Positions 7,648-61,669 of a DNA stretch of 64,000 bases are shown here, in pieces. This DNA is from Bacteroides sp. (GTDB taxonomy: Bacteria; Bacteroidota; Bacteroidia; Bacteroidales; Bacteroidaceae), in NCBI RefSeq assembly GCF_019416685.1, contig NZ_DXWV01000071.1; one strand, written 5' to 3'. The translations under genes were made by a program, and so were the position numbers. The stretch's first letter is position 1. The number at the start of each line of letters is the position of its first letter. The notes under the pieces were generated by a model. The model was not told where the DNA came from. It saw nothing but the letters and a program-made list of their open reading frames with translations, and ran no database searches.

Positions 7648-10600
7648 ATGAAAAATATAGATACGTTTGACCTTTCTAAGGTCGAACAGGTACGATTTTT
7701 ACAAATATTGAAGGTTTCAATACTCTTTTTAATACTTAGTTGGAACCCAGTTTTCGCTTCTACTTTCCCGGCTCAGACGCTTATTACTATCGAAGCAAAA
7801 AGTAAAGCTGTCAAAGAAGTCTTTAACGACATAGAAAAACAGAGTGAGTTTATTGTTTTCTTCTTAGATCAAAATATAGACGTTGACAGAAAGGTGAGTC
7901 TCTCTGCAAAGAAGCAAACGGTTAATAAGATTCTGGATCAGATGTTTAAAGGGACAGATGTTTCTTATTCTATTGTGGGAAGGCAAATCGTAATTTCTAA
8001 AGTTGCCAATAAGGCATCTACAACTCAACAGAGTAAAAAGTGGACATTAAAAGGACTGTTGACTGATGTTGATGGTAATCCGATTGTAGGAGCTTCTGTA
8101 ATGTTGAAAGGAACTTCGACCGGAGTTTTATCTGATGTAAATGGTTATTATGCTATTGAAGTAGAAAACGGACAGACATTGGAATACCGGTTTATTGGAT
8201 TTGATACGGAAGAGAAAGTCGTGAAGGCTGGTATGAATGGTAATCTACGCATGCGGGAATCCAGTGTAAATCTGGATGATGTGGTTGTGATAGGCTACGG
8301 TCAACAAAAAAAAGAGAGTGTAGTTGCTTCTATTAATTCCATAGGTCCGGCTGAACTTTCTATGCCACAACGCAATCTTAGAAATAATATTGCGGGTCAG
8401 GTAGCTGGTATCATAGCTATTCAGCGGAGTGGAGAACCAGGAAATGATAGTGCTGAATTCTGGATCCGCGGTCAAAGTTCGTATGCAGGAGGTACTTCTC
8501 CATTGGTTCTGGTAGATGGAGTTCCCCGTTCGATGGATGATATCGATGTGGATGAAATAGAAACATTTTCAGTATTAAAGGATGCGGCTGCTACGGCCGT
8601 ATACGGTTCGGAAGGAGCCAATGGTGTCGTATTGATAACATCTAAACGAGGAAAAGCACAAAAAACAAATATTAGTTTCAGGGCACAATACAGTGTAGTT
8701 ACACCTACGAGAATGCCTGAATTATTACCTTCATATGACTACCTGTCACTCTATAATGAAGGACAATGGAATGAAGCCGGTAATCCGGATTGGGATACAT
8801 TTAATAGGACTTACTCGGATGAGTTATTAGAGAAATATCGTACAGGGGCAGATCCTGACTTATATCCCAATGTGAATTGGATGGATCTGCTGTCTAACAA
8901 CACACACAATCAACGCTATACATTGAATTTCAGAGGTGGATCTGAAAAAGCTAAGTTTTTTATATCAGGAGCTTACTACAATGAAACCGGTATATTCAAA
9001 TCCAACCCGATTGAAAAATATGATGCCAATATTGGTCTTGACCGCTATAATTTGCGAACTAATGTGGATATGGATATTACATCGACTACTAAAATATCGG
9101 TAGATCTTAGCGGGCAGTATAAGACAAAAAACAATCCGGGAAATACTTCGGATGCTATTTTTGATATGATTACCCAGTTCCCGACACATTACATTCCAAT
9201 GTATTATTCTGACGGTAGTATTTCAGAACACTATACATTTGACCCGAGTACTCGTTCTAATCCGTATAACATGTTGAATCACTACGGATATACCAAAAGT
9301 TGGAGTATGAATGTGCAGTCTAAAGTCACTTTAGATCAAAAGCTGGATATAATTACAAAAGGGCTTTCCTGGAAAGGAAGTGTTAGTTTTGATGCATCGG
9401 CTTATTCTATTATTAAGCGTGAAAAGTCTCCGAATTCATATTATGCAACCGGACGCGACGAAGAAGGGAATCTGATAAAAACAGAGATTAAGCAAGGTAG
9501 TGCACTGGGCAATCCGGCCTATTCAAGCTCGGGTGGTGAGAAGAAAATCTATATTGAAACTTCTTTGAATTATAAAAGACTTTTTAAGGAAAAACATGAT
9601 GTTTCGGGTATTTTACTGTATATGCAGAAAGAAAGTCAGAACCAGAATGTTTCGGGTATACAGTTACTTCCGTACAGAAAGCAGAGTGTGGTAGCCAGAG
9701 TTGCTTATGGTTATGACAATCGTTATATGCTGGAAGGTAGCTTCGGTGCAACCGGTAGTGAAAACTTTGCATCAGGACACCGCTGGGGAATTTTTCCGGC
9801 AGTTGGGGCAGCTTGGTACGTTAGCCATGAAAAGTTTATGGAACCTTTGGAAAATACCTTAAGTAAACTAAAGCTGAGAGCTTCCTTCGGTATTACCGGT
9901 AATGATGAGATTGGTTCGAGTTCTCGCTTTCCTTATAGGGAATCACTTTCAACAGGAGGTACCGGATACAATATGGGACTTACTCCGGGTGTGAATGGTG
10001 ATGTAACCGGAGCTAGCGGTGGCGGAATTATCGAACAGGATTTTGCAACTCCTAATCTGACCTGGGAACGTGAGCGCAAAATAAATATTGGTGCCGATCT
10101 GGGATTCTTCAAAGGTAGTGTTGACTTGATTGTGGACTGGTTTGCCAATCGTCGTAATAATATTCTGTTACGTCGTAAAACAATTCCTTCGGCTGCCGGA
10201 TTTCGTAATAGTCCCTGGCAAAATTTTGGAGTTACCACCAATAAAGGTATTGATGCAAGTTTAGTCTTTAAACAGCAGATTGGGAAGGTCTTTATGTCAG
10301 TGAGAGGAAATCTTACTTATGCTAAAAACAAAGTAGAAGAGTATGATGAAGTGCCTCAGGTTTATCAGTATCAGGCTTATACAGGTCAGTCTATCGGACA
10401 ACCGTTGGTATACGTAGCCGAAGGTTTATATACTCCTGACGATTTTGATATTGTAGAAAATACAAATGGAAGTAAGACTTATACATTGAAAGATGGTATG
10501 CCCAATCCGGGTACTCAGGTTGCTCCGGGCGATATCAAATATAAAGATTTGAATGGAGATAAGAAGATTGATTCTTTGGATAAGACATACGAGAATGGTT

Positions 10601-11112
10601 TGTATCCTGAAGATCCCAGATTGGTTTATGGATTCGGATTGAATCTGGAGTGGAAAGGCTTCTTCGCCGGAGTATTCTTCCAGGGGGTAGGGCAAACTTC
10701 TGTTAACCTTTTGGCTTCGGCCGGTAACTTTATGCCGTTCCATAATGGAGTGGACGCTTCTTCTGCCCGTATGGAGTCTTTGAACCGTTGGCAGAATGAT
10801 GATCCTTACAATCAGAATGTTTTATTCCCACGTGTACATGCTACTAAATTTGACAATAATACTTATGGAAGTACATGGTGGTATCGTAATGGTAGCTTCT
10901 TGCGATTGAAAAATGTAGAGTTCGGCTATCAGTTCAATAAGCAGATGTTGCGTAAAATCAGTATGCAGAATCTGAGAATTTATGTTCAGGGAACTAATCT
11001 GGCAGTTTGGGACAATATAAAGTACTGGGATCCTGAACTGGGTGGTTCTAACTCCGGATCAAAATATCCGATATGCGGAACATGGACAATGGGACTTGAA
11101 GTTACATTTTAA
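7648..11112 (+). CDS. SusC/RagA-family TonB-dependent outer-membrane transporter with N-terminal STN signalling domain
   Basis: STN-like N-terminus ([20 protein letters not shown] ... [13 protein letters not shown]). CarboxypepD_reg domain ([39 protein letters not shown]). TonB box and plug ([16 protein letters not shown] ... [32 protein letters not shown]). The C-terminal barrel ends in F. Length is 1154 aa. Confidence 0.95.
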   Translation: [1154 protein letters not shown]

Positions 11113-26686: not shown

Positions 26687-27475
26687 ATGAAACGTACAAC
26701 TTATATACTTATAGGAATATTAGTATTGGGACTGCTGGTATTATTAGCCTTTGTCTTTTATGCCTCAGTAGCCGGCAACAAGCCAAAGGAGGACAAAGAA
26801 CTCTTCCCGGAATCCGTGTCGATGGATGCGACAGGCATTCACACCGTAAAGTTTAGACTCGATAAGGAGAATGTGTACATCCCATTGTTGGGCAGATTGT
26901 GGGTAAAACCTGGACAGGGGGAGACTAAGACGTTCTCTTATCCCAAAGGAGCTTCCAAATACTTTACGGTTGAACGTGAAAAGGACACCTTGTTCGTCTC
27001 TTTCCGTTACGATGAAAAACTGTTCTCAGATAAAAAGGGCGAATATGAATTGCCCACCCGTGGATTGAAATTTAATCTGGAAGCAGATTCAACCTTGAAC
27101 CTCATTTACAATCATGTGGGCGGATTGGGTGTTGCCCTCTCCAATTTAACATTGGACAGCCTTTCTGTCCGGACCATGTTTCAGTCATTTTTAGTTGATT
27201 CCTGTAGATTTCGTGCATTGAATACGGAGGTCTTTTCAGGATCTTTCGATGTATACCGGAGTACAATTCGAGATCTGCACATTAATCTGAATGGGATAGA
27301 AAACTGGAGAGTGGAGAAATGTGATATCGATACGGAATACCTGAGCGGCGACTATAAACATCAGTGTGAACTTCCCCGGGGAGAATGTCGCCAGATGTTT
27401 TGGATTCCCCGGAATAAAGATGCAGAATTGAGAGTCACTTTAAAAACTGAGGCCCGTGTCTTGCTTCAGGAGTAA
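26687..27475 (+). CDS. Hypothetical membrane-anchored protein
   Basis: N-terminal TM helix (YILIGILVLGLLVLLAFVFYA). The remainder looks beta-rich. No family is recognised with confidence. Confidence 0.6.
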   Translation: MKRTTYILIGILVLGLLVLLAFVFYASVAGNKPKEDKELFPESVSMDATGIHTVKFRLDKENVYIPLLGRLWVKPGQGETKTFSYPKGASKYFTVEREKDTLFVSFRYDEKLFSDKKGEYELPTRGLKFNLEADSTLNLIYNHVGGLGVALSNLTLDSLSVRTMFQSFLVDSCRFRALNTEVFSGSFDVYRSTIRDLHINLNGIENWRVEKCDIDTEYLSGDYKHQCELPRGECRQMFWIPRNKDAELRVTLKTEARVLLQE

Positions 27476-27505
27476 TTTAAGATAATATTGTATTTATTTT
27501 CTGAA

Positions 27506-27545
27506 AAGATGAGGCTGGTCCGAAAAAACGGATCAGCCTCATCTT
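27506..27545 (+). terminator. Intrinsic terminator after the ABC/GntR operon
   Basis: AAGATGAGGCTG / CAGCCTCATCTT 12-bp stem with a 16-nt loop, followed by TATAT. Confidence 0.6.
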
Positions 27546-27594
27546 TATATCGATTCCAAGATAGAACTGGATAGTGATTCTCGGATATAAAAAA

Positions 27595-27614
27595 AGAGAA
27601 GCAATTGCTTCTCT
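27595..27614. terminator. Perfect 20-bp palindrome AGAGAAGCAATTGCTTCTCT flanked by an A-run and TT (bidirectional terminator-like)
   Basis: On the minus strand it is followed by TTTTT. It lies just downstream (minus sense) of the tRNA 3' fragment. Confidence 0.5.
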
Positions 27615-27623
27615 TTCTGTAAG

Positions 27624-27644
27624 TTGCGGAGATCCGATTTGAAC
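27624..27644 (-). other. 21-nt tRNA 3'-end fragment (putative displaced att core at the prophage left junction)
   Basis: The minus strand reads GTTCAAATCGGATCTCCGCAA, which parses as G53, T-loop TTCAAAT, T-stem 3' half CGGAT, acceptor 3' strand CTCCGCA and a discriminator A. No matching 5' half is present upstream of it. Confidence 0.4.
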
Positions 27645-27827
27645 ACTCTTATTCCCGTTTCTGTAAGATGCAGATTACCAGCTTTTTACATTATTCGTAA
27701 TATGGTTATTTTATATTATATTGTCCCAATTTAGTCCCGGTAAACGTCTTAAAACATAATCATAATTTACTGATATTCATGTTTGTATGTGTTTACCGAT
27801 CTTTCCATTTGCCGCCTTTTATAATCG

Positions 27828-28205
27828 TCATCCGGCAGCTTCGGCACTGTTGCCGTGGTATAACTCCAATCTAGCCGATAGAGTCGCATTTTCTTGTATA
27901 AGACGCTTAACCTCTTCTTTCAATTCTTTATTTTCCTCCTTTAAATAATTTGTTAAATTGTTATCGTTTGATCCTGAATTGTCAGGTGAAAGAAATTTTT
28001 CCCCTTCCCCGGTTATTATCCACATGATATTAATAGTAGGATATATGCGGATAATATTCCTCAATGCGTCACTTCCAATCTCTCCTGTTATTTTTCTAAT
28101 AAATTCCCTACTTTTCCCAATTTGTAGTGAAAACTGGTTAGGAGTTACATTTAATGCATCACAGAGTTGAACTAGTCTTTCTTTAATTGGAGTATCTGTT
28201 TCCAT
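27828..28205 (-). CDS. CI-like phage repressor (HTH N-terminal domain plus coiled-coil C-terminus)
   Basis: Phage_CI_repr-like N-terminus (KERLVQLCDALNVTPNQFSLQIGKSREFIRKI ... NIMWIITGEGEKFL). C-terminal heptad region LKEENKELKEEVKRLIQENATLSARLEL. It is the only minus-strand gene and is divergent from the early operon. Confidence 0.75.
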   Translation of the reverse strand: METDTPIKERLVQLCDALNVTPNQFSLQIGKSREFIRKITGEIGSDALRNIIRIYPTINIMWIITGEGEKFLSPDNSGSNDNNLTNYLKEENKELKEEVKRLIQENATLSARLELYHGNSAEAAG

Positions 28206-28221
28206 ATTATTTTTGTTAAAA

Positions 28222-28267
28222 GCGAAAAATATTCCCCTGTATATTTTATTATGCGAAAAATATTCCT
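28222..28267. promoter_or_regulatory. Two direct repeats GCGAAAAATATTCC(C/T) spaced 31 bp apart in the divergent repressor/early intergenic region (candidate operators)
   Basis: Copies at 28222-28236 and 28253-28267. Further dyads (TACTGCA..TGCAGTA, TAGGGAAAATACCCTA) lie downstream. Confidence 0.35.
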
Positions 28268-28377
28268 CATATTTGCACTGTCAATTACAAATTACTGCAT
28301 CAAATATAACAAAAAGTTGCAGTACACACAATAGGGAAAATACCCTATGTCTATGTAAAATCTAAATATAAAATATT

Positions 28378-28614
28378 ATGGCTGTAACTAAAAAGCATTA
28401 CTCATTTACGCCTGGTACATTAAAAGTATCCAGAGAAGACTATCCGAAATTGAAAGATCAGCTTTATAACTTCCTTGGTTGTTCGTCGGATCCTGAATAT
28501 TATAGGAAAAAGAAAGACTATCTGAATATACCGGCCCATATCAAAGAAGGAATAGAAAAGATCTTCTCTGAATTTGGGGTAGATGTTTCTGATATCTGGG
28601 ATATAAAAGGATAA
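28378..28614 (+). CDS. Hypothetical early protein (78 aa)
   Basis: First plus-strand ORF after the divergent region. No motif recognised. Confidence 0.6.
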   Translation: MAVTKKHYSFTPGTLKVSREDYPKLKDQLYNFLGCSSDPEYYRKKKDYLNIPAHIKEGIEKIFSEFGVDVSDIWDIKG

Positions 28615-28617
28615 GCT

Positions 28618-28989
28618 ATGAATATACAGGCAGAATTAACCGAACGGGAAGAGGAAATCGCGGAAGTTATGGGGCTAGGCGCTATTTCCCAGAAAGAAGC
28701 TGCTAACATTTTGGGTATTTCAATTAAGACGGTAGACAATACCTTGCAGAAGATCAAAGAAAAGGCCGGTATTAGCAAAGCTGCTGAATTGACAAAGTTC
28801 TGTTTTTGCCGGAAATTTAATATTCCCTTGTCTATGTGTGAACCGGTAAAACGGTTTGTGGCCGCTTGTTTTCTTTCCGTATTCATATTTGGCGAATATG
28901 TACATGCTAGTGATTTGTATCGAAGAGCCACTGGGACACGCCGGGCGCAAACGGAAGAAGTGGTAAGATTAAGACGAACTGAAACTTAA
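28618..28989 (+). CDS. LuxR/GerE-type HTH protein with hydrophobic C-terminal segment
   Basis: LTEREEEIAEVMGLGAISQKEAANILGISIKTVDNTLQKIKEKAGI, followed by a hydrophobic stretch FVAACFLSVFIFGEYV. Confidence 0.7.
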   Translation: MNIQAELTEREEEIAEVMGLGAISQKEAANILGISIKTVDNTLQKIKEKAGISKAAELTKFCFCRKFNIPLSMCEPVKRFVAACFLSVFIFGEYVHASDLYRRATGTRRAQTEEVVRLRRTET

Positions 28990-29001
28990 TACTCTGCCTA
29001 G

Positions 29002-29059
29002 TAGAGCGCCAACGGACAATAATAAGGCTTTAAACCGGTGACAGCCGAGAACAGATCGG
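29002..29059 (+). repeat. 58-nt direct repeat, copy A (flanks the tRNA-like gene)
   Basis: TAGAGCGCCAACGGACAATAATAAGGCTTTAAACCGGTGACAGCCGAGAACAGATCGG. 52/58 identical to 29161-29218. Confidence 0.85.
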
Positions 29060-29064
29060 CATTT

Positions 29065-29145
29065 CCTGGAATAGTTCAGCGGAAGAACAAAAAATACAGA
29101 TGATATCGAGTATTTATGTCGGTGGTTCGATTCCACCTTCCAGGG
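29065..29145 (+). ncRNA. tRNA-like element with a non-canonical anticodon arm (possible pseudo-tRNA or tRNA mimic)
   Basis: Acceptor CCTGGAA/TTCCAGG. D arm GTTC-AGCGGAA-GAAC. T arm GGTGG-TTCGATT-CCACC. 5-nt variable loop. The anticodon region is a 6-bp AAATAC/GTATTT stem closing a 12-nt loop, with 3 nt between the D and anticodon stems. No CCA is encoded. Confidence 0.55.
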
Positions 29146-29160
29146 CGTTACATAAAAGTT

Positions 29161-29218
29161 TAGAAAGCCAACGGACAATAATAAGGCATTAAACCGGTGA
29201 CAGCCGGGAATAGACCGG
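29161..29218 (+). repeat. 58-nt direct repeat, copy B
   Basis: TAGAAAGCCAACGGACAATAATAAGGCATTAAACCGGTGACAGCCGGGAATAGACCGG. Contains an AACCGGT...ACCGGTT 7-bp stem. Confidence 0.85.
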
Positions 29219-29246
29219 TTATGTTTAACATTAAAAAAATTCTATT

Positions 29247-29546
29247 ATGGCAGGAAAAGCAAGTATTACAGCAAAAAAAGCGGAACTAGAAGTCTATAAA
29301 GATGGAAGTTTCCACAGAATCGACACTCTTAATTTTAGACCGGGTGAGTACCCGGAGTTTACAAAGTTCCTGGAACAAAATTTTTCCTTAGAGCAAGTAC
29401 ATAGTAACACTAAAAAGAAATCAGGTTTTTATCTAGTAAAAGTTGATCCAGATAAAAGAGAAGATCTTCTTAATATTCTTAGTAACGGTCTGGGAAGTAC
29501 AGTTGATCTTAATTCGCCATGTATTTATACTGGCACAAAAGATTAG
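29247..29546 (+). CDS. Hypothetical early protein (99 aa)
   Basis: Same-strand packed ORF. No motif recognised. Confidence 0.6.
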   Translation: MAGKASITAKKAELEVYKDGSFHRIDTLNFRPGEYPEFTKFLEQNFSLEQVHSNTKKKSGFYLVKVDPDKREDLLNILSNGLGSTVDLNSPCIYTGTKD

Positions 29547-29548
29547 CT

Positions 29549-29728
29549 ATGGCACGGCATAGATGGACTTTATTACAGCCGACACCAGACCGAATACCGG
29601 GAGTCTATAAGGCTGAAATTTGTGTCAAATGTGGATGCGTTAAGCTCCACTTGTACTTAGGCCGGATCTACACTTCTTCTTATCTCCTTAATGGAGAAGA
29701 ATTTTCAAAACTACCTGAATGTAAATAG
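29549..29728 (+). CDS. Small Cys-motif protein (59 aa; CVKCGC)
   Basis: The ATG at 29549 follows the previous stop codon. Motif ICVKCGCVKLH plus a C-terminal PECK. Confidence 0.5.
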   Translation: MARHRWTLLQPTPDRIPGVYKAEICVKCGCVKLHLYLGRIYTSSYLLNGEEFSKLPECK

Positions 29729-29735
29729 TGAAATT

Positions 29736-29990
29736 ATGGAAACAAAAAAATGTACAGCATGTGGCAGCATATTGCCTATAAGTGAGTTTTCACACCATCC
29801 TAAGACGGCAGACGGACTATGTAACGTTTGCATGAGTTGCCGTTCTGCGAAGATCTCTAAAGGGAAAAAGAAACAGCAACCAGGAAGTAATCCCCAATTA
29901 GCGCAATTTAAACCGCGTGAATTGATGGATGAACTTAGAGCCAGGGGCTACAAGGGGACATTAACCTACGTGCAAGAGATCAAACTTTAA
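29736..29990 (+). CDS. Zn-ribbon protein (84 aa)
   Basis: CTACGSILPISEF...CNVCMSC (CxxC...CxxC) with a basic linker and the C-terminal motif PRELMDELRARGYKGTL. Confidence 0.6.
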   Translation: METKKCTACGSILPISEFSHHPKTADGLCNVCMSCRSAKISKGKKKQQPGSNPQLAQFKPRELMDELRARGYKGTLTYVQEIKL

Positions 29991-30001
29991 AAACTGGTTT
30001 T

Positions 30002-30511
30002 ATGGGAAATGAAATAGTAAAAAATAAGCTGGAAAAGCTTAAAAGGCTGAATAGCTCTTTTCTTGAGAAAAAAGAACTACATAATAAAAAGATGATGCGG
30101 GCCCGAAAATTTGAAACGGAAGAATTTCACTCGGAAAAATACAAGCTGTATTATTCATTAAGTAGTAGAGCGTCCGATCTTGCTTATAATATTCGTAGGA
30201 ATTTTCTATATGAAAAAAGAATTATTGATTGGGGAGATGCCGAAAGTATTAAGATAGATTATCGTATTCGGTTGAGTAAAAAAGCCGAAGGGCGAGAGAA
30301 CTATCTAAATAAGCATAAATACGGGCTTTGGTTTCTGGGTAGTTCTTTAGGTGCGGATTATGGTGAATTTACTTGTGATAAATGCGGATGCACGTTTTAT
30401 CATTCACCTTCTGAAATAACACTGGCCGGTAAGGTTGTGTACAAATGTTGTTGCGGGCACTGCACCAATAGTATAATAAACAGAGATTGGGGGGAAGAAC
30501 CCTATTTTTAA
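30002..30511 (+). CDS. Hypothetical protein with Cys-rich C-terminus (169 aa)
   Basis: C-terminal CDKCGCTFYH...YKCCCGHC. Confidence 0.6.
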   Translation: MGNEIVKNKLEKLKRLNSSFLEKKELHNKKMMRARKFETEEFHSEKYKLYYSLSSRASDLAYNIRRNFLYEKRIIDWGDAESIKIDYRIRLSKKAEGRENYLNKHKYGLWFLGSSLGADYGEFTCDKCGCTFYHSPSEITLAGKVVYKCCCGHCTNSIINRDWGEEPYF

Positions 30512-30810: not shown

Positions 30811-31311
30811 ATGAAGCAATATAGAAAGAAAGTCTGCCCGGTTTGTGAGCGTAAACTTTGGTTACATAGCTTTTATAAATGTGCTTCTGGGTATAGTTCA
30901 CACTGTAAGGAATGTGTTAGGGAAGAAAAGAGGCAAGAGTATGCAAGGAATCGTAAAGTTCCTGACGGTTGCTTTTTCCATGAAGCTAAAGGCCGGCTAG
31001 TAGAACATAAGGGATGTAGTACCCGAATTTTATGGTCGGGGAATATGCTTAGTTTATTGAAACGATACTATCCGACTACCCGTAATGAGGAACTGGCTGA
31101 ATTAGTAGGGGTATCTCCTAGAACACTTACGCGTAAGGCTCGCGAATTGGGATTAGTTAAGGATCCCGACTGGCTGAAAGGGGTATATAATTATAATCGG
31201 AGGGATGCCCAAGCAGCAAGTAAACGTAAAGGTTATCCGGGATCGTTTAAGTCAGGGTGTAGGGTTGGAGAAAAATTTTGGTTCAAAAAGAAAAAAAAGG
31301 AAATATTATGA
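30811..31311 (+). CDS. Zn-ribbon plus HTH protein (166 aa)
   Basis: N-terminal CPVCERKL...CKECV and a C-terminal HTH-like segment ELAELVGVSPRTLTRKARELGL. Confidence 0.6.
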   Translation: MKQYRKKVCPVCERKLWLHSFYKCASGYSSHCKECVREEKRQEYARNRKVPDGCFFHEAKGRLVEHKGCSTRILWSGNMLSLLKRYYPTTRNEELAELVGVSPRTLTRKARELGLVKDPDWLKGVYNYNRRDAQAASKRKGYPGSFKSGCRVGEKFWFKKKKKEIL

Positions 31312-57517: not shown

Positions 57518-60500
57518 ATGGCAAAGTTACAACCGGATTATATTACATGGGTGTTATCTCTTAACGCCAATGATTTACAGAAAGAAATTCATAGTCTCCA
57601 TGAATCAACCAAGAAGCTAAAGGATGATAATAAGGGACTTCGTAAGGAGATGGCCGATCTTGTTATGCAAGGGAAAGCCGGTGGCGAGGAATGGAAGAAT
57701 CTGAATAAACAGATACTGGAAAATTCTAAGACGATTCGTGAGAATAATACCAAAATTGCGGAATGTGAAAAGAGACTGGATAAAACAACTATGTCCGCCA
57801 GTCAGTTGAGCAAAAAAGCTAAAGAATTGTCTCGTGAACTAAGCAATACGGTAAAATCTCTGGAACCGGAAAAATATGCCGCTTTAGAAAAGGAATTGAA
57901 AGCGGTAACTGAACAGATGGATAGGAATCGGGCAAGTGCCGGAGGGCTATTTCAGACTTTTTCTTCTTTCAGTAAATTAAAATCGGCGATTGCAGGTATC
58001 TTTGTCGGATTCGGGCAAATGATTGGGCAGACCTTTTTGGGAGCTATACGCCAATTCCAAAACACAATTAAAGACTTTGAATTTGCTAATGCCAATTTAG
58101 CCGCTATTCTAGGAACTACTAGGGATAAAATCACTGACTTGACAGAAGATGCCAAGCGTTTGGGAGCAGCAACCAAGTATACAGCGTCAGAAGTAACGAA
58201 TCTGCAAACTGAACTGGCTAAACTAGGCTTTAACAAGCAGGAAATTTTGGAAGCCACTCAATACGTCTTAAGGTTTGCCGGTGCCACTGGTGCCGAGTTA
58301 CCGGAAGCGGCTAAATTAGCCGGAGCCGCAATCAGAGCTTTCGGATTGGAAACAACAGACACCGAACGCGTTGTTTCTGCTATGGCAATTGCTACAACAC
58401 GTAGCGCTATGGATTTTGGCTATTTACAGACGGCTTTATCTACAGTAGCTCCGGTTGCACAAGCTTTTGGCTTTACGATTGAGGATACGATGTCATTGCT
58501 AGGGACATTGGCGAATGCGGGATTTGATGCTTCTTCGGCGGCTACTGCTACTAGAAACATTCTGTTAAACCTTGCTGACTCGTCAGGCAAACTGGCGGTT
58601 GCTTTAGGGCGTCCGATAACATCACTTGAAGAGTTGGCACCTGCATTAAAGGAACTGGATGAAGAAGGGATTGATCTGGCAAAAACGTTGGAACTAACGG
58701 ATAAACGAAGTGTGGCTGCATTTAACGCTTTTCTTACCGGTGCCAATAAACTTATTCCTTTACGAGATGCTGTAACAGATGTTGGGGATGAACTGAAAGC
58801 CATGAGCGACGAAAAAATGAATACAGTTCAGGGAAGCATCAAGATCATGGAGAGTGCCATAGAAGGGCTTATCTTGAAGTTCTACGAATCTAGGGGGGTA
58901 ATGAAACTTGTTATTGATGCTTTTACCGGACTAATAAATGGGATTAGTTGGTGTATTGATAAATTTGCTCAATATCGGGCGATATTGCTTCCAGTGATAA
59001 CAGCTTTAAGTACTTATTGGGCTACAACAAAATTAGTTGTAGCTTGGAATACAAAGGCTGTTGCCGGTACTGCGGCTAATATAGCGATTGAGAAGTTACA
59101 CGCTATACAATTGGCTTTTTCCCGCAAAGCTTTGTTAGCAAAGTTGATAGCTTTAGACTTGTATAAGGGGCGTTGTAGTATTGCAACGGCTGTAACGGAA
59201 ATGTTTAATCTTGTATTGAAGGCTTCTCCAATAGGAGTTGTTGCTGCTTTGATAACTGTGGCTGCCACGGCTATGTATCTGTTTGGAAACAAGACATCTG
59301 TAGCTGATAAGTCAATATCCGAGTTAAATAAAAAACTTGAAACAGAACGTGCTTCTCTCAATGAAATTTTTAAAGAATTAAAAAAGACAAACCCTGGGAC
59401 ATCGGAACGTAGTCGATTGGTGAAAGAATTGAATGATAAGTATGGCTATTTAATTGGAAACTACGATTTGGAAACTGCCAAACTGCAAGAAATAACCCGT
59501 GCACAGAATGATGCTAATACTGCTTTGACCAATCGAATTGCTAATGAGATGAGATCACAGTCTGTTTCTGAATATGTCAAAAATAGAGTTTCCGCCCAAA
59601 TTGACACGGAGGAGCGGCTCTTGAAAATGATGCGTTCTTCGATGTCAGTTGATGTCTTTGATAAATTAAAACCGGCAATGACTACTTTTTTGCAGGACTC
59701 TACAAAAACATTAGAAGATTTTACTCACCAATTTGGAAAATATGCGGATATGAGCATTAGCAAACAAGTGGAGTTTACTGCTTTTTTTAAAGCAATGCGT
59801 TCTGACCAAAAAAGCTATTCATTGGGTATTGATGAAATCAATAAGAAATATGAACCATATATTAAGTCGATAAAAGCTGCTACAACTTCCTCACAGGAGG
59901 AATTAAAAGTACAGGTAGAAGCGACTTCGAAAATAAAACAACTTGAAGATAGGAAAAAAGAAGTACAAGAAACCTGGAAGGAGGATACTAAAAAAAATAT
60001 CCGACTGAAAAATCAAGAGTTGGAGCGGATTGATACCGAGATTAGAAAACTTAGAGAACTAGGTACAGCAAAGGCTGCTTCTGATGCTGAAAATGCGAAT
60101 AACAAACAAAAGGAAAAAGAGAGAAAAGAGCTTCTTGAATCAGAAAAAAAACAAATTCAATCATTAGAAAACCTTCGCAAAGAAGATTTACAGAAACAAC
60201 AAAGAAGTTATAATTCTGCATTGAACGGCTATCGCCTTATGTTAAGTAATAAGACGATAAGCCAATCTCAATTTGACATTTATACAGCAACATTGGCTTT
60301 GAACAATGCAGAAACGCTACTTAGCATTGAAGAAAAGTATTATCAGCAATCTAATGAATTAGTAGTCACCAATGAAGAGCTTAAGGCTAAAGCCGTTGGA
60401 GAAGCTGACAAAAGAGTGGCGGATGCAGAGCAAAAGACGTTTGATGCCAGATTAAAAACTGAAAAAGATTATTATGATAACCTGCAAACGATGAGGGATA

Positions 60501-61669
60501 TGTTGCAGGAATCTACAGATAATCCGGAAGACCGATTGAAAGCTGAATATGACGCTCAATTAGCCTTGCTTAAAGGGCTCTATGAAACATCATTGAATTA
60601 CGCAAAAAAGAATGGGAAGGATGAAGTTGAAGTTGAACGAATTTACACTGATGCCAAAGAACTCTTATTAAAGAAGTATTATAAGGCCAAAGCTGATTTA
60701 GCTAAAAAGTCCAAAGGTGAACTAAAGGGAATTATAGGTAATGAACTATCAGAGGATGTTGCTGATATCTTTAATGCCATAAGTAAGTTGAAAGATATTT
60801 TCAAGAATTTTTCCGATCCTGAATTCTGGGAAAAATTTAAAGGGGATATTTTAGAGAATATGGGAGCTTTGGTTAATGCTGTAACATCTGGACTTAGTTC
60901 TGCTTTTAGTACTTTTAAGCAAATAGAGAAAGATAATGTTGAAGCTAAATACAACGCAGAAATAGCGGCTGCGGAAGGTAATTCAGAGGAAATAGAACGA
61001 CTGGAGCAGGAAAAGGCACAGAAGAAACTGGATATTGAGAAAAAATATGCAGATATACAATTTGCAATTAAAGCTTCCGAAATTATTGCTAATACAGCTT
61101 TGGCAATAGTAATGGCTTTAGGACAATTAGGGCCAATTGCCGGCCCTATTGCTGCCGGATTAATGGGGGCAATAGGTGCTGTCCAACTTGCCGCTGCCAA
61201 TGCGGAACGCCAAAAGGTTAAAAGTATGACATTAAATAATACTAGCAGTTCTTCTGCAAGTGGCGAAAGGGTCGTTAATTCTCCGGGAGGGTATGATGAA
61301 GGCGGATACACCGGTGATGGTGGGCGCTATGAAATAGCTGGTGCAGTTCATCGCGGGGAGTATGTTGTTCCAGTACCGGAAATGAAGAATAAAAGGGTGG
61401 TCAATATGGTTAAGGTGATTGAGAGCATACGCCGACAACGTACTACTGCAAATCCATTGCCCGGCTATTATGAAGGCGGTCATGTGGAAGACAGAATTGA
61501 TACGCAAGTAGAATCACCTTCAAAACTTGATAAAGCTGCTGAACGGTTGGAAGCGGCGGCAAACCGATTGTCTCAACCGCTTAAGTCTTATGTTCTTTTA
61601 TCCGATATCAATGATGCAGAGGAAATTAAATATAAGTCAGAAAAACCATTTACAAGGGGGGATAACTAA
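57518..61669 (+). CDS. Tail tape measure protein
   Basis: 1383 aa. Long coiled-coil stretches, a central Ala/Gly-rich hydrophobic TMP core (FAGATGAELPEAAKLAGAAIRAFGL..., hydrophobic helices around aa 480-590), and a Gly-rich C-terminus (GGYDEGGYTGDGGRYEIAGAVHRGEYVVP). Confidence 0.88.
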   Translation: MAKLQPDYITWVLSLNANDLQKEIHSLHESTKKLKDDNKGLRKEMADLVMQGKAGGEEWKNLNKQILENSKTIRENNTKIAECEKRLDKTTMSASQLSKKAKELSRELSNTVKSLEPEKYAALEKELKAVTEQMDRNRASAGGLFQTFSSFSKLKSAIAGIFVGFGQMIGQTFLGAIRQFQNTIKDFEFANANLAAILGTTRDKITDLTEDAKRLGAATKYTASEVTNLQTELAKLGFNKQEILEATQYVLRFAGATGAELPEAAKLAGAAIRAFGLETTDTERVVSAMAIATTRSAMDFGYLQTALSTVAPVAQAFGFTIEDTMSLLGTLANAGFDASSAATATRNILLNLADSSGKLAVALGRPITSLEELAPALKELDEEGIDLAKTLELTDKRSVAAFNAFLTGANKLIPLRDAVTDVGDELKAMSDEKMNTVQGSIKIMESAIEGLILKFYESRGVMKLVIDAFTGLINGISWCIDKFAQYRAILLPVITALSTYWATTKLVVAWNTKAVAGTAANIAIEKLHAIQLAFSRKALLAKLIALDLYKGRCSIATAVTEMFNLVLKASPIGVVAALITVAATAMYLFGNKTSVADKSISELNKKLETERASLNEIFKELKKTNPGTSERSRLVKELNDKYGYLIGNYDLETAKLQEITRAQNDANTALTNRIANEMRSQSVSEYVKNRVSAQIDTEERLLKMMRSSMSVDVFDKLKPAMTTFLQDSTKTLEDFTHQFGKYADMSISKQVEFTAFFKAMRSDQKSYSLGIDEINKKYEPYIKSIKAATTSSQEELKVQVEATSKIKQLEDRKKEVQETWKEDTKKNIRLKNQELERIDTEIRKLRELGTAKAASDAENANNKQKEKERKELLESEKKQIQSLENLRKEDLQKQQRSYNSALNGYRLMLSNKTISQSQFDIYTATLALNNAETLLSIEEKYYQQSNELVVTNEELKAKAVGEADKRVADAEQKTFDARLKTEKDYYDNLQTMRDMLQESTDNPEDRLKAEYDAQLALLKGLYETSLNYAKKNGKDEVEVERIYTDAKELLLKKYYKAKADLAKKSKGELKGIIGNELSEDVADIFNAISKLKDIFKNFSDPEFWEKFKGDILENMGALVNAVTSGLSSAFSTFKQIEKDNVEAKYNAEIAAAEGNSEEIERLEQEKAQKKLDIEKKYADIQFAIKASEIIANTALAIVMALGQLGPIAGPIAAGLMGAIGAVQLAAANAERQKVKSMTLNNTSSSSASGERVVNSPGGYDEGGYTGDGGRYEIAGAVHRGEYVVPVPEMKNKRVVNMVKVIESIRRQRTTANPLPGYYEGGHVEDRIDTQVESPSKLDKAAERLEAAANRLSQPLKSYVLLSDINDAEEIKYKSEKPFTRGDN

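What the first reader, a model, noticed from the sequence alone, without database searches (positions are those of the whole stretch)
29002..29218. tRNA-like gene with an aberrant anticodon arm, bracketed by two 58-nt direct repeats, in the phage early operon
Positions 29065-29145 fold as three-quarters of a textbook tRNA. There is a 7-bp acceptor (CCTGGAA/TTCCAGG), a D arm GTTC-AGCGGAA-GAAC, a T arm GGTGG-TTCGATT-CCACC, and a 5-nt variable loop. The anticodon region, however, is a 6-bp AAATAC/GTATTT stem closing a 12-nt loop (AGATGATATCGA) that can pair internally (GAT/ATC). Three nucleotides replace the usual single nucleotide 26, and no CCA is encoded. It therefore cannot decode in the canonical way. 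The element sits between two 58-nt direct repeats (29002-29059 and 29161-29218, 52/58 identical, 159 bp apart), each with its own stem potential. The whole 260-bp block is ORF-free inside an otherwise tightly packed operon. Possible roles are a tRNA mimic or decoy against tRNA-targeting host defences, an RNase P/Z processing cassette that releases the flanking repeat RNAs, or a landing pad for a tRNA-targeting integrase. None of these is established.
Basis: partly seen in the sequence, partly recalled or inferred. Interest (0 to 1): 0.72.

Follow-up and report, generated by a model that had tools for sequence, protein, structure and literature searches.

The report
Non-decoding tRNA-shaped RNA in Bacteroides prophage
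A Bacteroides prophage carries a conserved tRNA-shaped RNA gene whose over-long anticodon arm means it almost certainly cannot read codons, sitting between two copies of a second, previously undescribed structured RNA motif; both look functional, but what they do is unknown.

Summary
Window 29065-29145 (+) has a textbook acceptor stem, D arm, T arm and 5-nt variable loop, but a 6-bp "anticodon" stem closing 12 nt. It lies between 58-nt direct repeats (52/58 identical). Rfam's tRNA model scores 45.9 bits only by skipping the arm centre. ARAGORN's "tRNA-Ser(AGA)" is a forced parse, and orthologues are called Ile, Ser, Phe, "???" or nothing.

Twelve variants from related Bacteroides prophages keep every helix (299/300 cells paired; compensatory and wobble changes on the + strand only). 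The junction length (1-3 nt), arm length and "anticodon" triplet (GAU/GGU/GAA/GAC) vary. Diversity is 0.074, against 0.30 at third codon positions. It is therefore a selected, non-decoding tRNA-like RNA.

The repeat ("R") is a separate RNA motif. Its 3' hairpin covaries at three pairs. It occurs as a single copy in some relatives, and at the end of blocks of other aberrant tRNA-like RNAs in an unrelated prophage family. Four loci lack the 159-bp tRNA-like/R unit and have chimeric R copies, which points to loss by R1xR2 recombination.

My best mechanism is inferred, not shown: RNase P/Z excise a stable tRNA-scaffolded hairpin RNA that acts as a tRNA mimic.

The parts
27828..28205 (-). Repressor-like HTH gene, divergent from the early operon (context)
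   Evidence: PHROG transcriptional-regulator hits. The same 125-aa gene sits at this position in all related loci.
28618..28989 (+). Early gene directly upstream: 123-aa LuxR/sigma-70 region-4-type HTH protein with a hydrophobic C-terminal segment
   Evidence: Pfam Sigma70_r4_2 and GerE, just below their cut-offs. PHROG sigma/regulator hits. Homologues P0010-P0025.
28990..29001 (+). Nearly invariant 12 nt between the stop codon and R1. With R1's first bases it forms a small hairpin, CUCUGC-CUA-GUAGAG (28992-29006).
   Evidence: Mean pairwise difference 0.007. The hairpin appears in the MFE and centroid folds.
29002..29059 (+). R1, upstream copy of the R motif. The conserved core starts at GCCAACGG (29008). 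Candidate P1 is GCC 29008-29010 with GGC 29026-29028. The 3' hairpin is GCCGA 29044-29048, loop GAACAGA, then UCGGC 29056-29060.
   Evidence: Repeat confirmed. Covariance-model score 90 bits. Hairpin covariation. Diversity 0.076.
29060..29064 (+). 5-nt spacer (would-be RNase P leader), unconstrained
   Evidence: Diversity 0.37, about the level of third codon positions.
29065..29145 (+). tRNA-like RNA gene: 7-bp acceptor stem, 4-bp D arm with a G18G19-type loop, 3-nt junction, long anticodon-type arm, 5-nt variable loop, 5-bp T arm with a TTCGATT loop, discriminator G; no CCA encoded
29092..29115 (+). Aberrant anticodon-type arm: 6 bp (AAAUAC/GUAUUU), a 1x2 internal loop (A / GA), 3 bp (GAU/AUC) and triloop GAU
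   Evidence: MFE fold. All 9 pairs are kept in 12 variants apart from one cell, with A-U changing to G-U and G-C. The triplet and the internal loop vary.
29146..29160 (+). 15-nt conserved spacer between the tRNA-like 3' end and R2
   Evidence: Diversity 0.077.
29161..29218 (+). R2, downstream copy of the R motif. The 3' hairpin is GCCGG 29203-29207, loop GAAUAGA, then CCGGU 29215-29219.
   Evidence: Covariance-model score 96.8 bits. The innermost pair is G-C here and A-U in R1.
29219..29246 (+). 28-nt A/U-rich leader of the next ORF, containing the palindrome ATGTTTAACAT (29221-29231)
   Evidence: The palindrome is not over-represented in the window.
29247..29546 (+). 99-aa ORF of unknown function. 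In this prophage family it always lies directly downstream of an R copy.
   Evidence: Homologues P0001-P0009 at 71-98% identity. No Pfam, PHROG or PADLOC hit. The AlphaFold model is unreliable, with pLDDT 49.

Best explanation
Positions 29065-29145 encode a genuine, selected small RNA with the body of a tRNA: acceptor/T-arm stack plus the D/T elbow. Its anticodon arm has been replaced by a longer, mostly double-stranded hairpin, so it is not an adaptor in translation.

It is transcribed on the + strand as part of the prophage early operon.

Inferred mechanism:
- The host's tRNA-processing enzymes, which recognise only the acceptor/T/elbow half (RNase P at 29064/29065; RNase Z or exonucleases and possibly the CCA-adding enzyme near 29145), cut it out as a stable RNA of about 80 nt.
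- The tRNA body thus acts as a natural 'tRNA scaffold' presenting the long-arm hairpin.
- That RNA then acts as a tRNA mimic that occupies or diverts a tRNA-binding factor. A tRNA-targeting defence nuclease or a modification enzyme is my leading guess.
- The same cuts sever the early mRNA into an upstream piece ending in the R1 hairpin and a downstream piece beginning with R2.

The flanking 58-nt repeats are two copies of an independent cis-acting RNA motif, R. R has a conserved 5' domain and a covarying 5-bp hairpin with loop GAAYAGR. It normally sits about 30-50 nt upstream of an early ORF, and in a second prophage family it ends a block of other aberrant tRNA-like RNAs.

Because the two R copies are direct repeats, the 159-bp unit (tRNA-like plus one R) is repeatedly lost by R1xR2 recombination. 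The tRNA-like RNA therefore behaves as an accessory, not an essential, early function.

Shown: the structure, its conservation, purifying selection on the + strand, lack of a stable anticodon, the independence and structure of R, and the presence/absence polymorphism.

Inferred: transcription, processing, and the mimic or decoy role.
For: 1. tRNA body. Rfam tRNA scores 45.9 bits, with the arm centre left as a 20-nt insert. The MFE equals the centroid cloverleaf. U8/A14, G18G19, G15/C48, G46 and T54-T55-C56...A58 are read directly from the sequence.

2. Not a decoder.
- The junction is 3, 2 or 1 nt in different variants.
- The stem is 6 bp plus an internal loop plus 3 bp, or 7 bp contiguous in L026.
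- The central triplet is GAU, GGU, GAA or GAC among sequences that are 94% identical overall.
- The discriminator is G or A.
- ARAGORN calls orthologues Ser, Ile, Phe, '???' or nothing. With introns allowed it calls Ser(cga)+9 nt for the window but Thr(ggt)+5 nt for L026.
- Its parse of the window has 3/5 stem pairs and an unpaired 13-nt variable region.

3. Selection for structure.
- Across 12 distinct variants, 299/300 cells are paired.
- Ten pairs vary and all but one cell stay paired.
- Double changes occur in the T stem (G-C to A-U) and the arm (A-U to G-C).
- Thirteen G-U cells would be A-C mismatches on the other strand.
- Slid-partner controls give 34-51% paired.

4. Purifying selection. 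Mean pairwise difference is 0.074 for the tRNA-like, 0.076 for R1 and 0.097 for R2. This compares with 0.30-0.31 at third codon positions of both flanking ORFs and 0.37 in the 5-nt spacer.

5. R is its own motif.
- In 28 copies, hairpin pairs 45:61, 46:60 and 49:57 show double changes, and 0/500 shuffles reach the observed score.
- P1 changes from G-C to A-U in L044 R2.
- Single R copies without a tRNA-like occur in L024, L029, L038 and L041.
- R occurs in the unrelated prophage family L036/L051-L056 at 58-82 bits (22.9 bits in L051-L053), after 0.8-1.4 kb of non-coding DNA full of T-arm modules and aberrant tRNA-likes. There its hairpin is followed by a run of 4-6 U in L036, L054 and L055.

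6. Accessory status.
- The flanks of L038 are 100% identical to L030, and those of L041 are 99.3-100% identical to L042. Both partners carry the tRNA-like.
- The single R copies in L038 and L041 are R1(5')/R2(3') chimeras.
- 21 of 25 distinct loci keep the element.

7. Early-operon, host-takeover neighbourhood. A repressor-like gene lies upstream. Lar-like/endonuclease-VII-like zinc-finger ORFs, YopX and a radical SAM gene lie downstream.
Against: - There are no expression data, so transcription, RNase P/Z cleavage and stability are all inferred.
- Diversity is low (94% mean identity, about a dozen substitution events), so the covariation statistics for the tRNA-like are modest: 3/500 shuffles reach the score.
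- If only processing mattered, the arm would not need to be conserved. If a mimic mattered greatly, recurrent loss would be surprising.
- No tRNA-targeting defence or tRNA enzyme was found in the neighbourhood, and none is known to me for Bacteroides.
- One variant (L030) breaks the inner helix (G to A).
- The two very recent 'losses' (L038 at 2 kb, L041 at 3.5 kb) could be assembly short-cuts through the repeats.
- For L024 and L029 a single R could be the ancestral state rather than a deletion.
- The function of R is unknown. Its 5' domain is almost invariant, so its proposed P1 and pseudoknot pairings are barely tested.
Confidence: 0.5

Rival explanations
1. Pure punctuation. The tRNA-like exists only as an RNase P/Z cleavage signal that separates the regulatory genes' mRNA (ending in the R1 hairpin) from the downstream early mRNA (starting with R2). 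The excised RNA is a by-product with no function of its own.
For: - It is intergenic within a single-strand operon, with no convincing promoter or terminator in 28900-29300.
- The parts that RNase P and RNase Z recognise are the best conserved.
- Structured R copies end up at the new 3' and 5' ends.
- tRNA-like processing signals of this sort are established elsewhere, such as the MHV68 TMERs cut by tRNase Z (PMC4838037), mascRNA and mitochondrial tRNA punctuation (my own knowledge).
Against: - The long arm, which processing does not require, keeps all 9 pairs through substitutions and indels.
- R-only relatives with 99-100% identical flanks express the same genes without the element, so the cut is not needed.
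- This reading gives no reason for a tRNA-like loop signature (U before and A after the variable triplet).
Confidence: 0.2
2. It is a working decoder tRNA, either Ser/Ile as ARAGORN says, a tRNA with a short intron, or one with an expanded loop.
For: - ARAGORN calls a tRNA in most loci.
- Rfam's tRNA score is above the gathering threshold.
- The apical 7 nt can be written AUGAUAU, with U33-like and A37-like positions.
Against: - The isotype calls disagree between near-identical orthologues: Ser, Ile, Phe, '???', none; or Ser+9 nt intron versus Thr+5 nt intron.
- The triplet changes among GAU, GGU, GAA and GAC while the body stays the same, and the discriminator varies between G and A.
- The stem is 2-4 layers too long and the position-26 junction varies from 1 to 3 nt.
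- ARAGORN's parse needs a 3/5-bp stem.
- Bacterial tRNA introns are group I introns of hundreds of nucleotides (established knowledge). The excess here is 4-9 nt.
- There is no G3:U70, no long variable arm and no G-1 that would allow anticodon-independent charging (read from the sequence).
Confidence: 0.04
3. It is a decaying tRNA pseudogene, and the repeats are a neutral by-product of the rearrangement that brought it in.
For: - The anticodon arm is disrupted, there is no CCA, and the element is dispensable in four loci.
- The element has a narrow distribution. It was found in only 6 IMG/VR contigs, 2 of 185,579 species genomes and a few dozen metagenome contigs.
Against: - Diversity is four-fold lower than at third codon positions and in the adjacent 5-nt spacer.
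- 299/300 stem cells stay paired despite ten variable pairs.
- The aberrant arm itself is maintained through compensatory changes and indels.
- R is conserved in an unrelated prophage family, with a covarying stem.
Confidence: 0.08
4. It is a mobile cassette or attachment site. R1 and R2 would be recombination sites (attL/attR, or attC-like) of a 159-bp cassette, or the tRNA-like would be a landing pad for integrases or satellites.
For: - Direct repeats flank a unit that is present or absent as a whole.
- Integrase genes lie about 0.5 kb downstream in L025 and L029.
Against: - The crossover points inside R differ between the R-only loci. It is early in L038, near the hairpin in L041, and at or beyond the last diagnostic position in L024. 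That fits homologous rather than site-specific exchange.
- The integrase is present both in a locus with the element (L025) and in one without it (L029), and it is absent from the window's early region.
- No foreign DNA is inserted in any of the 21 distinct tRNA-like-bearing loci or in any of the 12 sequence variants.
- The prophage-host junctions lie elsewhere.
- R has G-U-tolerant, strand-specific covariation, which is typical of RNA.
Confidence: 0.03

Closest known systems
Phage-encoded tRNAs with altered anticodon loops that escape or neutralise tRNA-targeting defences (van den Berg et al. 2023, PMC10264068; PARIS/T5 tRNA-Lys, PMC11464382; retron evasion, PMC11555353)
   Same: A phage-borne tRNA-type gene whose anticodon region departs from the host norm, while the rest of the molecule stays canonical. 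It is an accessory gene.
   Different: Those are still decoders, with a 5-bp stem, a 7-nt loop and a fixed anticodon, and they replace depleted host tRNAs. Here the arm is lengthened, the junction is variable and the triplet drifts, so replacement of a host tRNA is excluded. At most it could act as a decoy.
Viral and cellular tRNA-like processing modules: MHV68 TMER vtRNAs (PMC4838037), and MALAT1 mascRNA and mitochondrial tRNA punctuation (my own knowledge)
   Same: A non-decoding tRNA-like fold embedded in a longer transcript, next to other structured RNA. The tRNA-processing enzymes define the ends of the neighbouring RNAs.
   Different: TMERs are eukaryotic Pol III units followed by pre-miRNA hairpins cut by tRNase Z and Dicer. 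Here the setting is a bacterial polycistronic operon, the neighbours are R motifs, and no processing has been shown.
Engineered 'tRNA scaffolds' for expressing RNA hairpins (Ponchon and Dardel 2007; my own knowledge)
   Same: A tRNA body with the anticodon arm replaced by a longer hairpin cargo. Its stability and defined ends come from tRNA processing.
   Different: That is a laboratory design. A natural bacterial or phage counterpart is not known to me. The cargo here is only a helix of about 9 bp with a triloop.
Bacterial Y-RNA-like YrlA RNAs and the tmRNA tRNA-like domain (my own knowledge; Rfam families)
   Same: They mimic the acceptor/T/D part of a tRNA, with a non-tRNA helix in place of the anticodon arm. 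Some are phage-borne.
   Different: No Rfam hit other than tRNA at E up to 10. ARAGORN finds no tmRNA. No Rsr/Ro gene, tag ORF or long Ro-binding stem is present.
For R: lambdoid nut/put sites and terminator-coupled 5' leader motifs (my own knowledge)
   Same: A short conserved linear segment followed about 8 nt later by a 5-bp hairpin with a conserved purine-rich loop. It lies early in a phage early operon, just after the first regulatory genes. In family 2 the hairpin is followed by a U run.
   Different: There is no sequence match to boxA/boxB. No N-, Q- or Nus-dependence is known. R has an extra, strongly conserved 5' domain (GCCAACGG...AAGGC). It is not in Rfam 15. The resemblance comes from memory and was not tested.
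Type III toxin-antitoxin antitoxin repeats (ToxI/CptI; my own knowledge)
   Same: Direct RNA repeats upstream of a small ORF in a phage-related context.
   Different: ToxI-type repeats are tandem. Here the two copies are 101 nt apart, and a single copy is enough in relatives. The downstream 99-aa ORF has no ToxN/Abi-type hit.

Membership tests
Canonical tRNA (Rfam RF00005) | 7-bp acceptor stem, D arm with a G18G19-type loop, and a 5-bp T arm with a TPsiC-type loop | tested here: met
   Read from the sequence, the fold, and 16 pairs kept in 12 variants. The Rfam score of 45.9 exceeds the gathering score of 29.
Canonical tRNA (Rfam RF00005) | 5-bp anticodon stem closing a 7-nt loop, with a single nucleotide 26 | tested here: not met
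   20 nt instead of 11 in the arm centre. The stem is 6 bp, then an internal loop, 3 bp and a triloop, with a junction of 1-3 nt. ARAGORN's canonical parse has a 3/5-bp stem.
Canonical tRNA (Rfam RF00005) | Anticodon and identity elements stable among orthologues | tested here: not met
   The triplet is GAU, GGU, GAA or GAC and the discriminator is G or A among variants 94% identical. Isotype calls are inconsistent.
Canonical tRNA (Rfam RF00005) | Aminoacylation and use on the ribosome | not testable with these tools
   Needs acid-gel or periodate assays and polysome profiling.
Intron-containing tRNA (bacterial group I intron or archaeal bulge-helix-bulge intron) | A removable insert in the anticodon loop that leaves a canonical arm after splicing | tested here: not met
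   The excess is only 4-9 nt. ARAGORN's intron mode gives different introns and isotypes for orthologues. No group I hit in Rfam.
tmRNA, or YrlA/Y-RNA-like tRNA mimics | Match to the family model, plus a tag ORF (tmRNA) or a Ro-binding stem with a neighbouring rsr gene (YrlA) | tested here: not met
   No tmRNA by ARAGORN. Only RF00005 in Rfam at E up to 10. Neighbouring genes are unrelated.
tRNA-like processing module (TMER vtRNA / mascRNA type) | Cleavage by RNase P at the 5' end and RNase Z at the 3' end, and no aminoacylation | not testable with these tools
   Only the substrate determinants (a 12-bp acceptor/T stack and an intact elbow) are seen.
Type III toxin-antitoxin (ToxIN-like) | Tandem antitoxin repeats directly upstream of an endoribonuclease toxin gene | tested here: not met
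   There are two non-adjacent copies, and one copy in four relatives. The 99-aa ORF has no Pfam, PHROG or PADLOC hit.
Prophage att site in a tRNA gene | The tRNA(-like) lies at a prophage-host junction, with the repeat at the other end of the prophage | tested here: not met
   The element is about 1.3 kb inside the prophage, downstream of the repressor and two early genes. The host flanks differ between loci while the block stays internal. The repeat has only two copies, 159 nt apart.
Known Rfam cis-regulatory or ribozyme families (for R) | Match to any of the 4227 covariance models | tested here: not met
   Nothing overlapping either R copy at E up to 10 in 28700-29500, and none in L036 or L054 around R.

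The most novel reading that the evidence does not exclude
Bacteroidales temperate phages may carry a previously unrecognised early-operon RNA module: non-decoding, tRNA-scaffolded RNAs coupled to a dedicated cis-acting motif, R.

The tRNA-scaffolded part is one short-armed RNA in this window, and arrays with 50-90-nt inserts or double T arms in the L036/L054 family.

In this reading the tRNA-shaped RNAs are decoys or inhibitors of host tRNA-targeting immunity, or of tRNA enzymes. R would be an attenuator or processing element whose state depends on them, in the manner of a T-box. That would couple expression of the downstream early genes to the tRNA-mimic RNAs.
Probability: 0.12. Interest if true: 0.85.

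Novelty: new variant of a known kind. Interest (0 to 1): 0.58.

Why it matters
Why phages carry tRNA genes is an old question. Current answers (codon supply, replacing tRNAs destroyed by host defences) assume that the tRNAs decode.

This RNA keeps everything a tRNA needs to be recognised by processing enzymes, and is under purifying selection, yet it has lost a fixed anticodon and the right arm length. It isolates a non-decoding role. It sits in a prophage of a culturable gut type strain (B. cellulosilyticus DSM 14838), and natural deletion variants already exist, so that role can be tested directly.

The work also turns up a candidate new structured RNA motif, R. Its stem covaries and it is shared by two unrelated Bacteroidales prophage families. 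It also gives a hint that aberrant tRNA-like RNAs are a recurrent feature of early operons in gut Bacteroides phages.

On the practical side, standard annotation will label these elements as tRNA-Ser, tRNA-Ile or tRNA-Phe, which is misleading.

Tried and rejected
- GenBank phages, DNA search with 28000-30500: no match.
- IMG/VR scans with five different patterns always returned the same six contigs. The anticodon-arm pattern returned none.
- The species-genome scan found only two true hits; the other nine are single chance matches.
- The metagenome scan gave 13 loci, three of them chance hits (L037, L045, L047).
- A more distant relative of the HTH gene (L028, 55% identity) has neither R nor a tRNA-like. 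Phage BT-TP2 (primase 66% identical) has no R and only a weak tRNA-like hit.
- Sigma-70-type promoter and terminator scan of 27400-30000: no more hits than in shuffles, and no terminator in the block. By eye, the Bacteroides -7 motif TAnnTTTG has only a 7/8 match (TATGTTTA, 29220-29227), with no -33 TTTG at the right distance.
- The palindrome ATGTTTAACAT as an operator: it is not repeated in the window.
- Antisense targets of the arm in the window: only matches with 3 mismatches.
- Structure of the 99-aa ORF: pLDDT 49, so no fold search was attempted.
- PADLOC, Pfam and PHROG searches on the early genes found no tRNA-related enzyme or defence system.
- Integron attC, DGR template/variable repeat and CRISPR-like readings of the repeats were considered from the sequence and dropped. 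There is no core-site match, no adenine-specific mismatches and no array.
- Pairing between R and the tRNA-like was checked by eye only. I found no complementarity that covaries. For example, R's GGUG stays unchanged where the T stem changes from GGUGG to GAUGG.
- The proposed pseudoknot in R (CGG 29013-29015 with CCG 29035-29037) is invariant in all 28 copies, so the data neither support nor contradict it.
Full report
CONTEXT

The first ~27.5 kb of the window is Bacteroides-type chromosome. It holds a SusC/TonB-dependent receptor, PL14, DUF2264, GH88 and an ABC transporter.

A prophage lies from about 27.8 kb onward, with all genes on the + strand and a tape-measure gene at 57518-61669. Its left end has a divergent repressor-like gene (27828-28205, - strand). 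An early operon follows:
- a 78-aa ORF;
- a 123-aa LuxR/sigma-region-4-type HTH protein (28618-28989);
- the 257-bp non-coding block under study;
- small ORFs that include Lar-like/endonuclease-VII-like zinc-finger proteins, YopX, a radical SAM protein and a primase-like 977-aa protein.

So "phage early operon" is a fair description. The nearest deposited phage is Bacteroides phage BT-TP2, whose primase is 66% identical.

THE OBSERVATION

RNAfold returns exactly the proposed cloverleaf as both MFE and centroid (-23.8 kcal/mol, z = -2.66). The 12-nt "loop" resolves into a 1x2 internal loop, a GAU/AUC helix and a triloop.

The 58-nt repeats are 52/58 identical and 159 nt apart. They are the only copies in 64 kb.

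Rfam's tRNA model scores 45.9 bits in a local search, but only by leaving 20 nt (instead of 11) of the arm unaligned. The default whole-window search missed the hit.

ARAGORN calls tRNA-Ser(AGA). Its own drawing shows a 3-of-5-pair anticodon stem and an unpaired 13-nt "variable arm".

RELATIVES

The element is narrowly distributed. I found it in:
- six IMG/VR contigs;
- two of 185,579 species-representative genomes: B. cellulosilyticus DSM 14838 and a Bacteroides MAG;
- metagenome contigs reached by a DNA pattern and through homologues of the two flanking proteins.

These gave 25 distinct loci, 12 distinct tRNA-like sequences (77-81 nt) and 28 distinct aligned repeat copies.

THE tRNA-LIKE RNA IS SELECTED FOR ITS FOLD

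On the 12 variants, the cloverleaf with the long arm has 299 of 300 cells paired. Ten of the 25 pairs vary.

Substitutions are compensatory or wobble-preserving:
- T-stem G-C to A-U;
- arm A-U to G-U to G-C;
- acceptor U-A to U-G;
- D-stem G-C to G-U.

Thirteen G-U cells would be mismatches on the opposite strand, so the + strand RNA is the object of selection. Sliding the partners drops pairing to 34-51%.

Only a dozen or so events are involved, so the shuffle statistics are modest (3/500).

My own rough estimate is an inference. If transitions fell at random in stems, about half would preserve pairing, whereas here about 11 of 12 do.

Independently, mean pairwise difference is 0.074 in the tRNA-like. 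This compares with 0.30-0.31 at third codon positions of both flanking ORFs and 0.37 in the 5-nt spacer just upstream.

IT IS NOT A DECODER

Among sequences 94% identical overall:
- the junction after the D stem is 3, 2 or 1 nt;
- the arm is 6 bp + internal loop + 3 bp, or (L026) 7 contiguous bp with an 8-nt loop;
- the central triplet is GAU, GGU, GAA or GAC;
- the discriminator is G or A.

ARAGORN labels orthologues Ile, Ser, Phe, "???" or finds nothing. With introns allowed it proposes Ser(cga)+9 nt for the window and Thr(ggt)+5 nt for L026.

No anticodon-independent identity element is present (no G3:U70, long variable arm or G-1; read from the sequence).

A variable junction and a variable arm length are incompatible with the fixed anticodon-to-acceptor geometry that decoding needs (established tRNA knowledge).

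THE REPEAT IS A SEPARATE RNA MOTIF ("R")

Aligned, the 28 copies share an almost invariant 5' domain (GCCAACGG-N-AAYAAGGC-NUUAAACCGGUG) and a 5-bp hairpin with loop GAAYAGR.

Three hairpin pairs show double compensatory changes (C-G/U-A/G-C; G-C/U-A/A-U; A-U/G-C). No shuffle out of 500 reaches the observed covariation. A short P1 shows one G-C to A-U change.

No Rfam family matches R.

R occurs as a single copy, without any tRNA-like, between the same two genes in L024, L029, L038 and L041.

R also occurs in an otherwise unrelated, higher-GC prophage family (L036, L051-L056). There the first 35 nt are identical to L024's copy, while the outer stem has covaried to GGCGG/CCGCC followed by a U run.

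In that family R closes a 0.8-1.4-kb non-coding block that follows two small early genes. The block is packed with T-arm modules and aberrant tRNA-like RNAs that ARAGORN does not call:
- a tRNA with a 57-nt insert in the anticodon loop;
- a conserved 108-nt RNA with two T-arm-like hairpins inside an acceptor stem;
- tRNA-likes of 86 nt (L036) and 126-127 nt (L054, L055).

Phage BT-TP2 lacks R but has a weak hit to a D-armless tRNA-like just upstream of its gp1 (23 bits).

Non-canonical tRNA-shaped RNAs therefore seem to recur in Bacteroidales prophage early operons, and R is associated with them.

PRESENCE/ABSENCE

The R-only loci nest among loci that carry the tRNA-like. L038's flanks are 100% identical to L030, and L041's are 99.3-100% identical to L042.

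Their single R copies are chimeras of the partner's R1 (5' part) and R2 (3' part), with different crossover points. That is the signature of homologous recombination between the direct repeats.

L024 and L029 are more diverged. They could be older deletions or an ancestral single-R state.

One caveat applies. The two very recent cases are short contigs, so assembler short-cuts through the repeats cannot be excluded.

Twenty-one of 25 distinct loci retain the element despite this built-in deletion route. I take that as weak evidence for selection to keep it, and the losses as evidence that it is accessory.

MECHANISM (INFERRED)

RNase P, RNase Z and the CCA-adding enzyme recognise the acceptor/T stack and the elbow, not the anticodon arm (established knowledge). 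Those are exactly the parts kept canonical here.

The most economical reading is that the early transcript is cut at both ends of the element. That releases a stable RNA of about 80 nt whose specific feature is the conserved long hairpin, in effect a natural tRNA scaffold.

The cuts would also leave the upstream mRNA ending in the R1 hairpin and the downstream mRNA beginning with R2.

The arm is under selection, and the element is dispensable for expression of the flanking genes. I therefore favour a function for the RNA itself over pure punctuation: a tRNA mimic that engages a tRNA-binding factor.

The location among early host-takeover-type genes fits that reading. So does the current literature on phage tRNAs and tRNA-targeting defences (PMC10264068, PMC11464382, PMC11555353, PMC12445682). 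That makes an anti-defence decoy the leading guess, but nothing here tests it. No tRNA-directed enzyme or defence gene was found nearby.

The role of R is also open. Two things suggest a cis-acting leader, attenuator or antitermination-type element:
- its position 30-50 nt upstream of an ORF;
- its hairpin plus U run in family 2.

The resemblance to nut sites comes from memory only.

COMPARISON AND NOVELTY

The element passes the tRNA tests for acceptor stem, D arm and T arm. It fails those for the anticodon arm and for a stable identity, so it should not be filed as a tRNA.

It works most like tRNA-like processing or mimic modules: MHV68 TMER vtRNAs (PMC4838037), mascRNA, YrlA and engineered tRNA scaffolds. 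It is not a member of any of those families.

I found no description of it, or of R, in the searchable literature.

I rate it a new variant of a known kind, with R as a candidate new RNA motif.

Interest is moderate to high: real, conserved, testable in a culturable strain, but without a demonstrated function.

Noticed in passing
L054 1976-3359; L036 1081-1780; L051 2039-3359; L055 2529-3359: A second, unrelated Bacteroidales prophage family has a 0.8-1.4-kb non-coding block in its early operon. The gene order is integrase and HTH_3 repressor on the - strand, then 65-aa and 96-aa ORFs, then the block. L054's block holds about six T-arm modules and aberrant tRNA-like RNAs that ARAGORN does not call. 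Examples are L054 2929-3052 (Rfam tRNA 51 bits, with a 57-nt insert in the anticodon loop) and tRNA-likes of 86-127 nt, GGAGGGT...ACC[CT]TCCA. The block ends in an R copy.
   Followed up: partly
L036 1369-1475; L054 2548-2654; L051 2546-2652; L055 2942-3048: A conserved 108-nt RNA closed by a 7-bp acceptor-like stem (UGCCGUG/CACGGCA). It contains two T-arm-like hairpins (GCGGG-UUCGAAU-CCCGC and GCAGG-UUCGAUU-CCUGC) and a central hairpin. Rfam gives only weak hits to permuted tmRNA (12-19 bits). It may be a new tRNA- or tmRNA-like RNA.
   Followed up: partly
L049 (Bacteroides phage BT-TP2, PQ571279.1) 365-434: An unannotated D-armless tRNA-like candidate just upstream of gp1 and just after a terminator-like hairpin. 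It has a 7-bp acceptor stem, a long hairpin of about 10 bp and a T arm (GGUAG-UUCGAUG-CUAUC). It scores 23 bits against my tRNA-like model, and its fold z-score is only -1.1.
   Followed up: partly
window 28044-28063 and 28250-28269: Two 20-nt direct repeats (TATGCGGATAATATTCCTCA / TATGCGAAAAATATTCCTCA, 90% identical, 206 nt apart). One lies inside the 5' part of the repressor-like gene and one in the divergent intergenic region. They are candidate operator sites.
   Followed up: no
window 26687-27828; L030-L032, L034 (same flank); L024, L029, L033 (other flank): The prophage family is found at two or more host sites. One is downstream of an ABC-transporter/GntR/274-aa gene cluster, as in the window. 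The other is downstream of an IclR/SASA pair. An integrase gene lies inside the early operon in L025 and L029, but no integrase-sized ORF lies in the early region of the window.
   Followed up: no
window 29065-29145: The default Rfam gathering-threshold search of the whole 64-kb window returned nothing. A local search gave tRNA at 45.9 bits, above the gathering score of 29. The speed filters lose this atypical tRNA-like.
   Followed up: yes
window 29691-29990 and 30811-31311: Two small Cys-rich ORFs with PHROG hits to endonuclease VII, HNH and Lar-like restriction-alleviation families (E about 1e-6 to 1e-9). They lie a few hundred bases downstream of the RNA block and could be anti-restriction functions.
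   Followed up: no
window 29221-29231: A perfect palindrome, ATGTT-T-AACAT, lies in the leader between R2 and the 99-aa ORF. It is conserved in most relatives (centre T to C in L026). It is unique in the window and not statistically unusual.
   Followed up: partly
window 1-27500: The host part of the window is a polysaccharide-utilisation-type locus, with a SusC-like TonB-dependent receptor (7648-11112), a PL14 lyase, DUF2264 and GH88 with an F5/8 type C domain. An ABC-transporter/GntR cluster follows.
   Followed up: no
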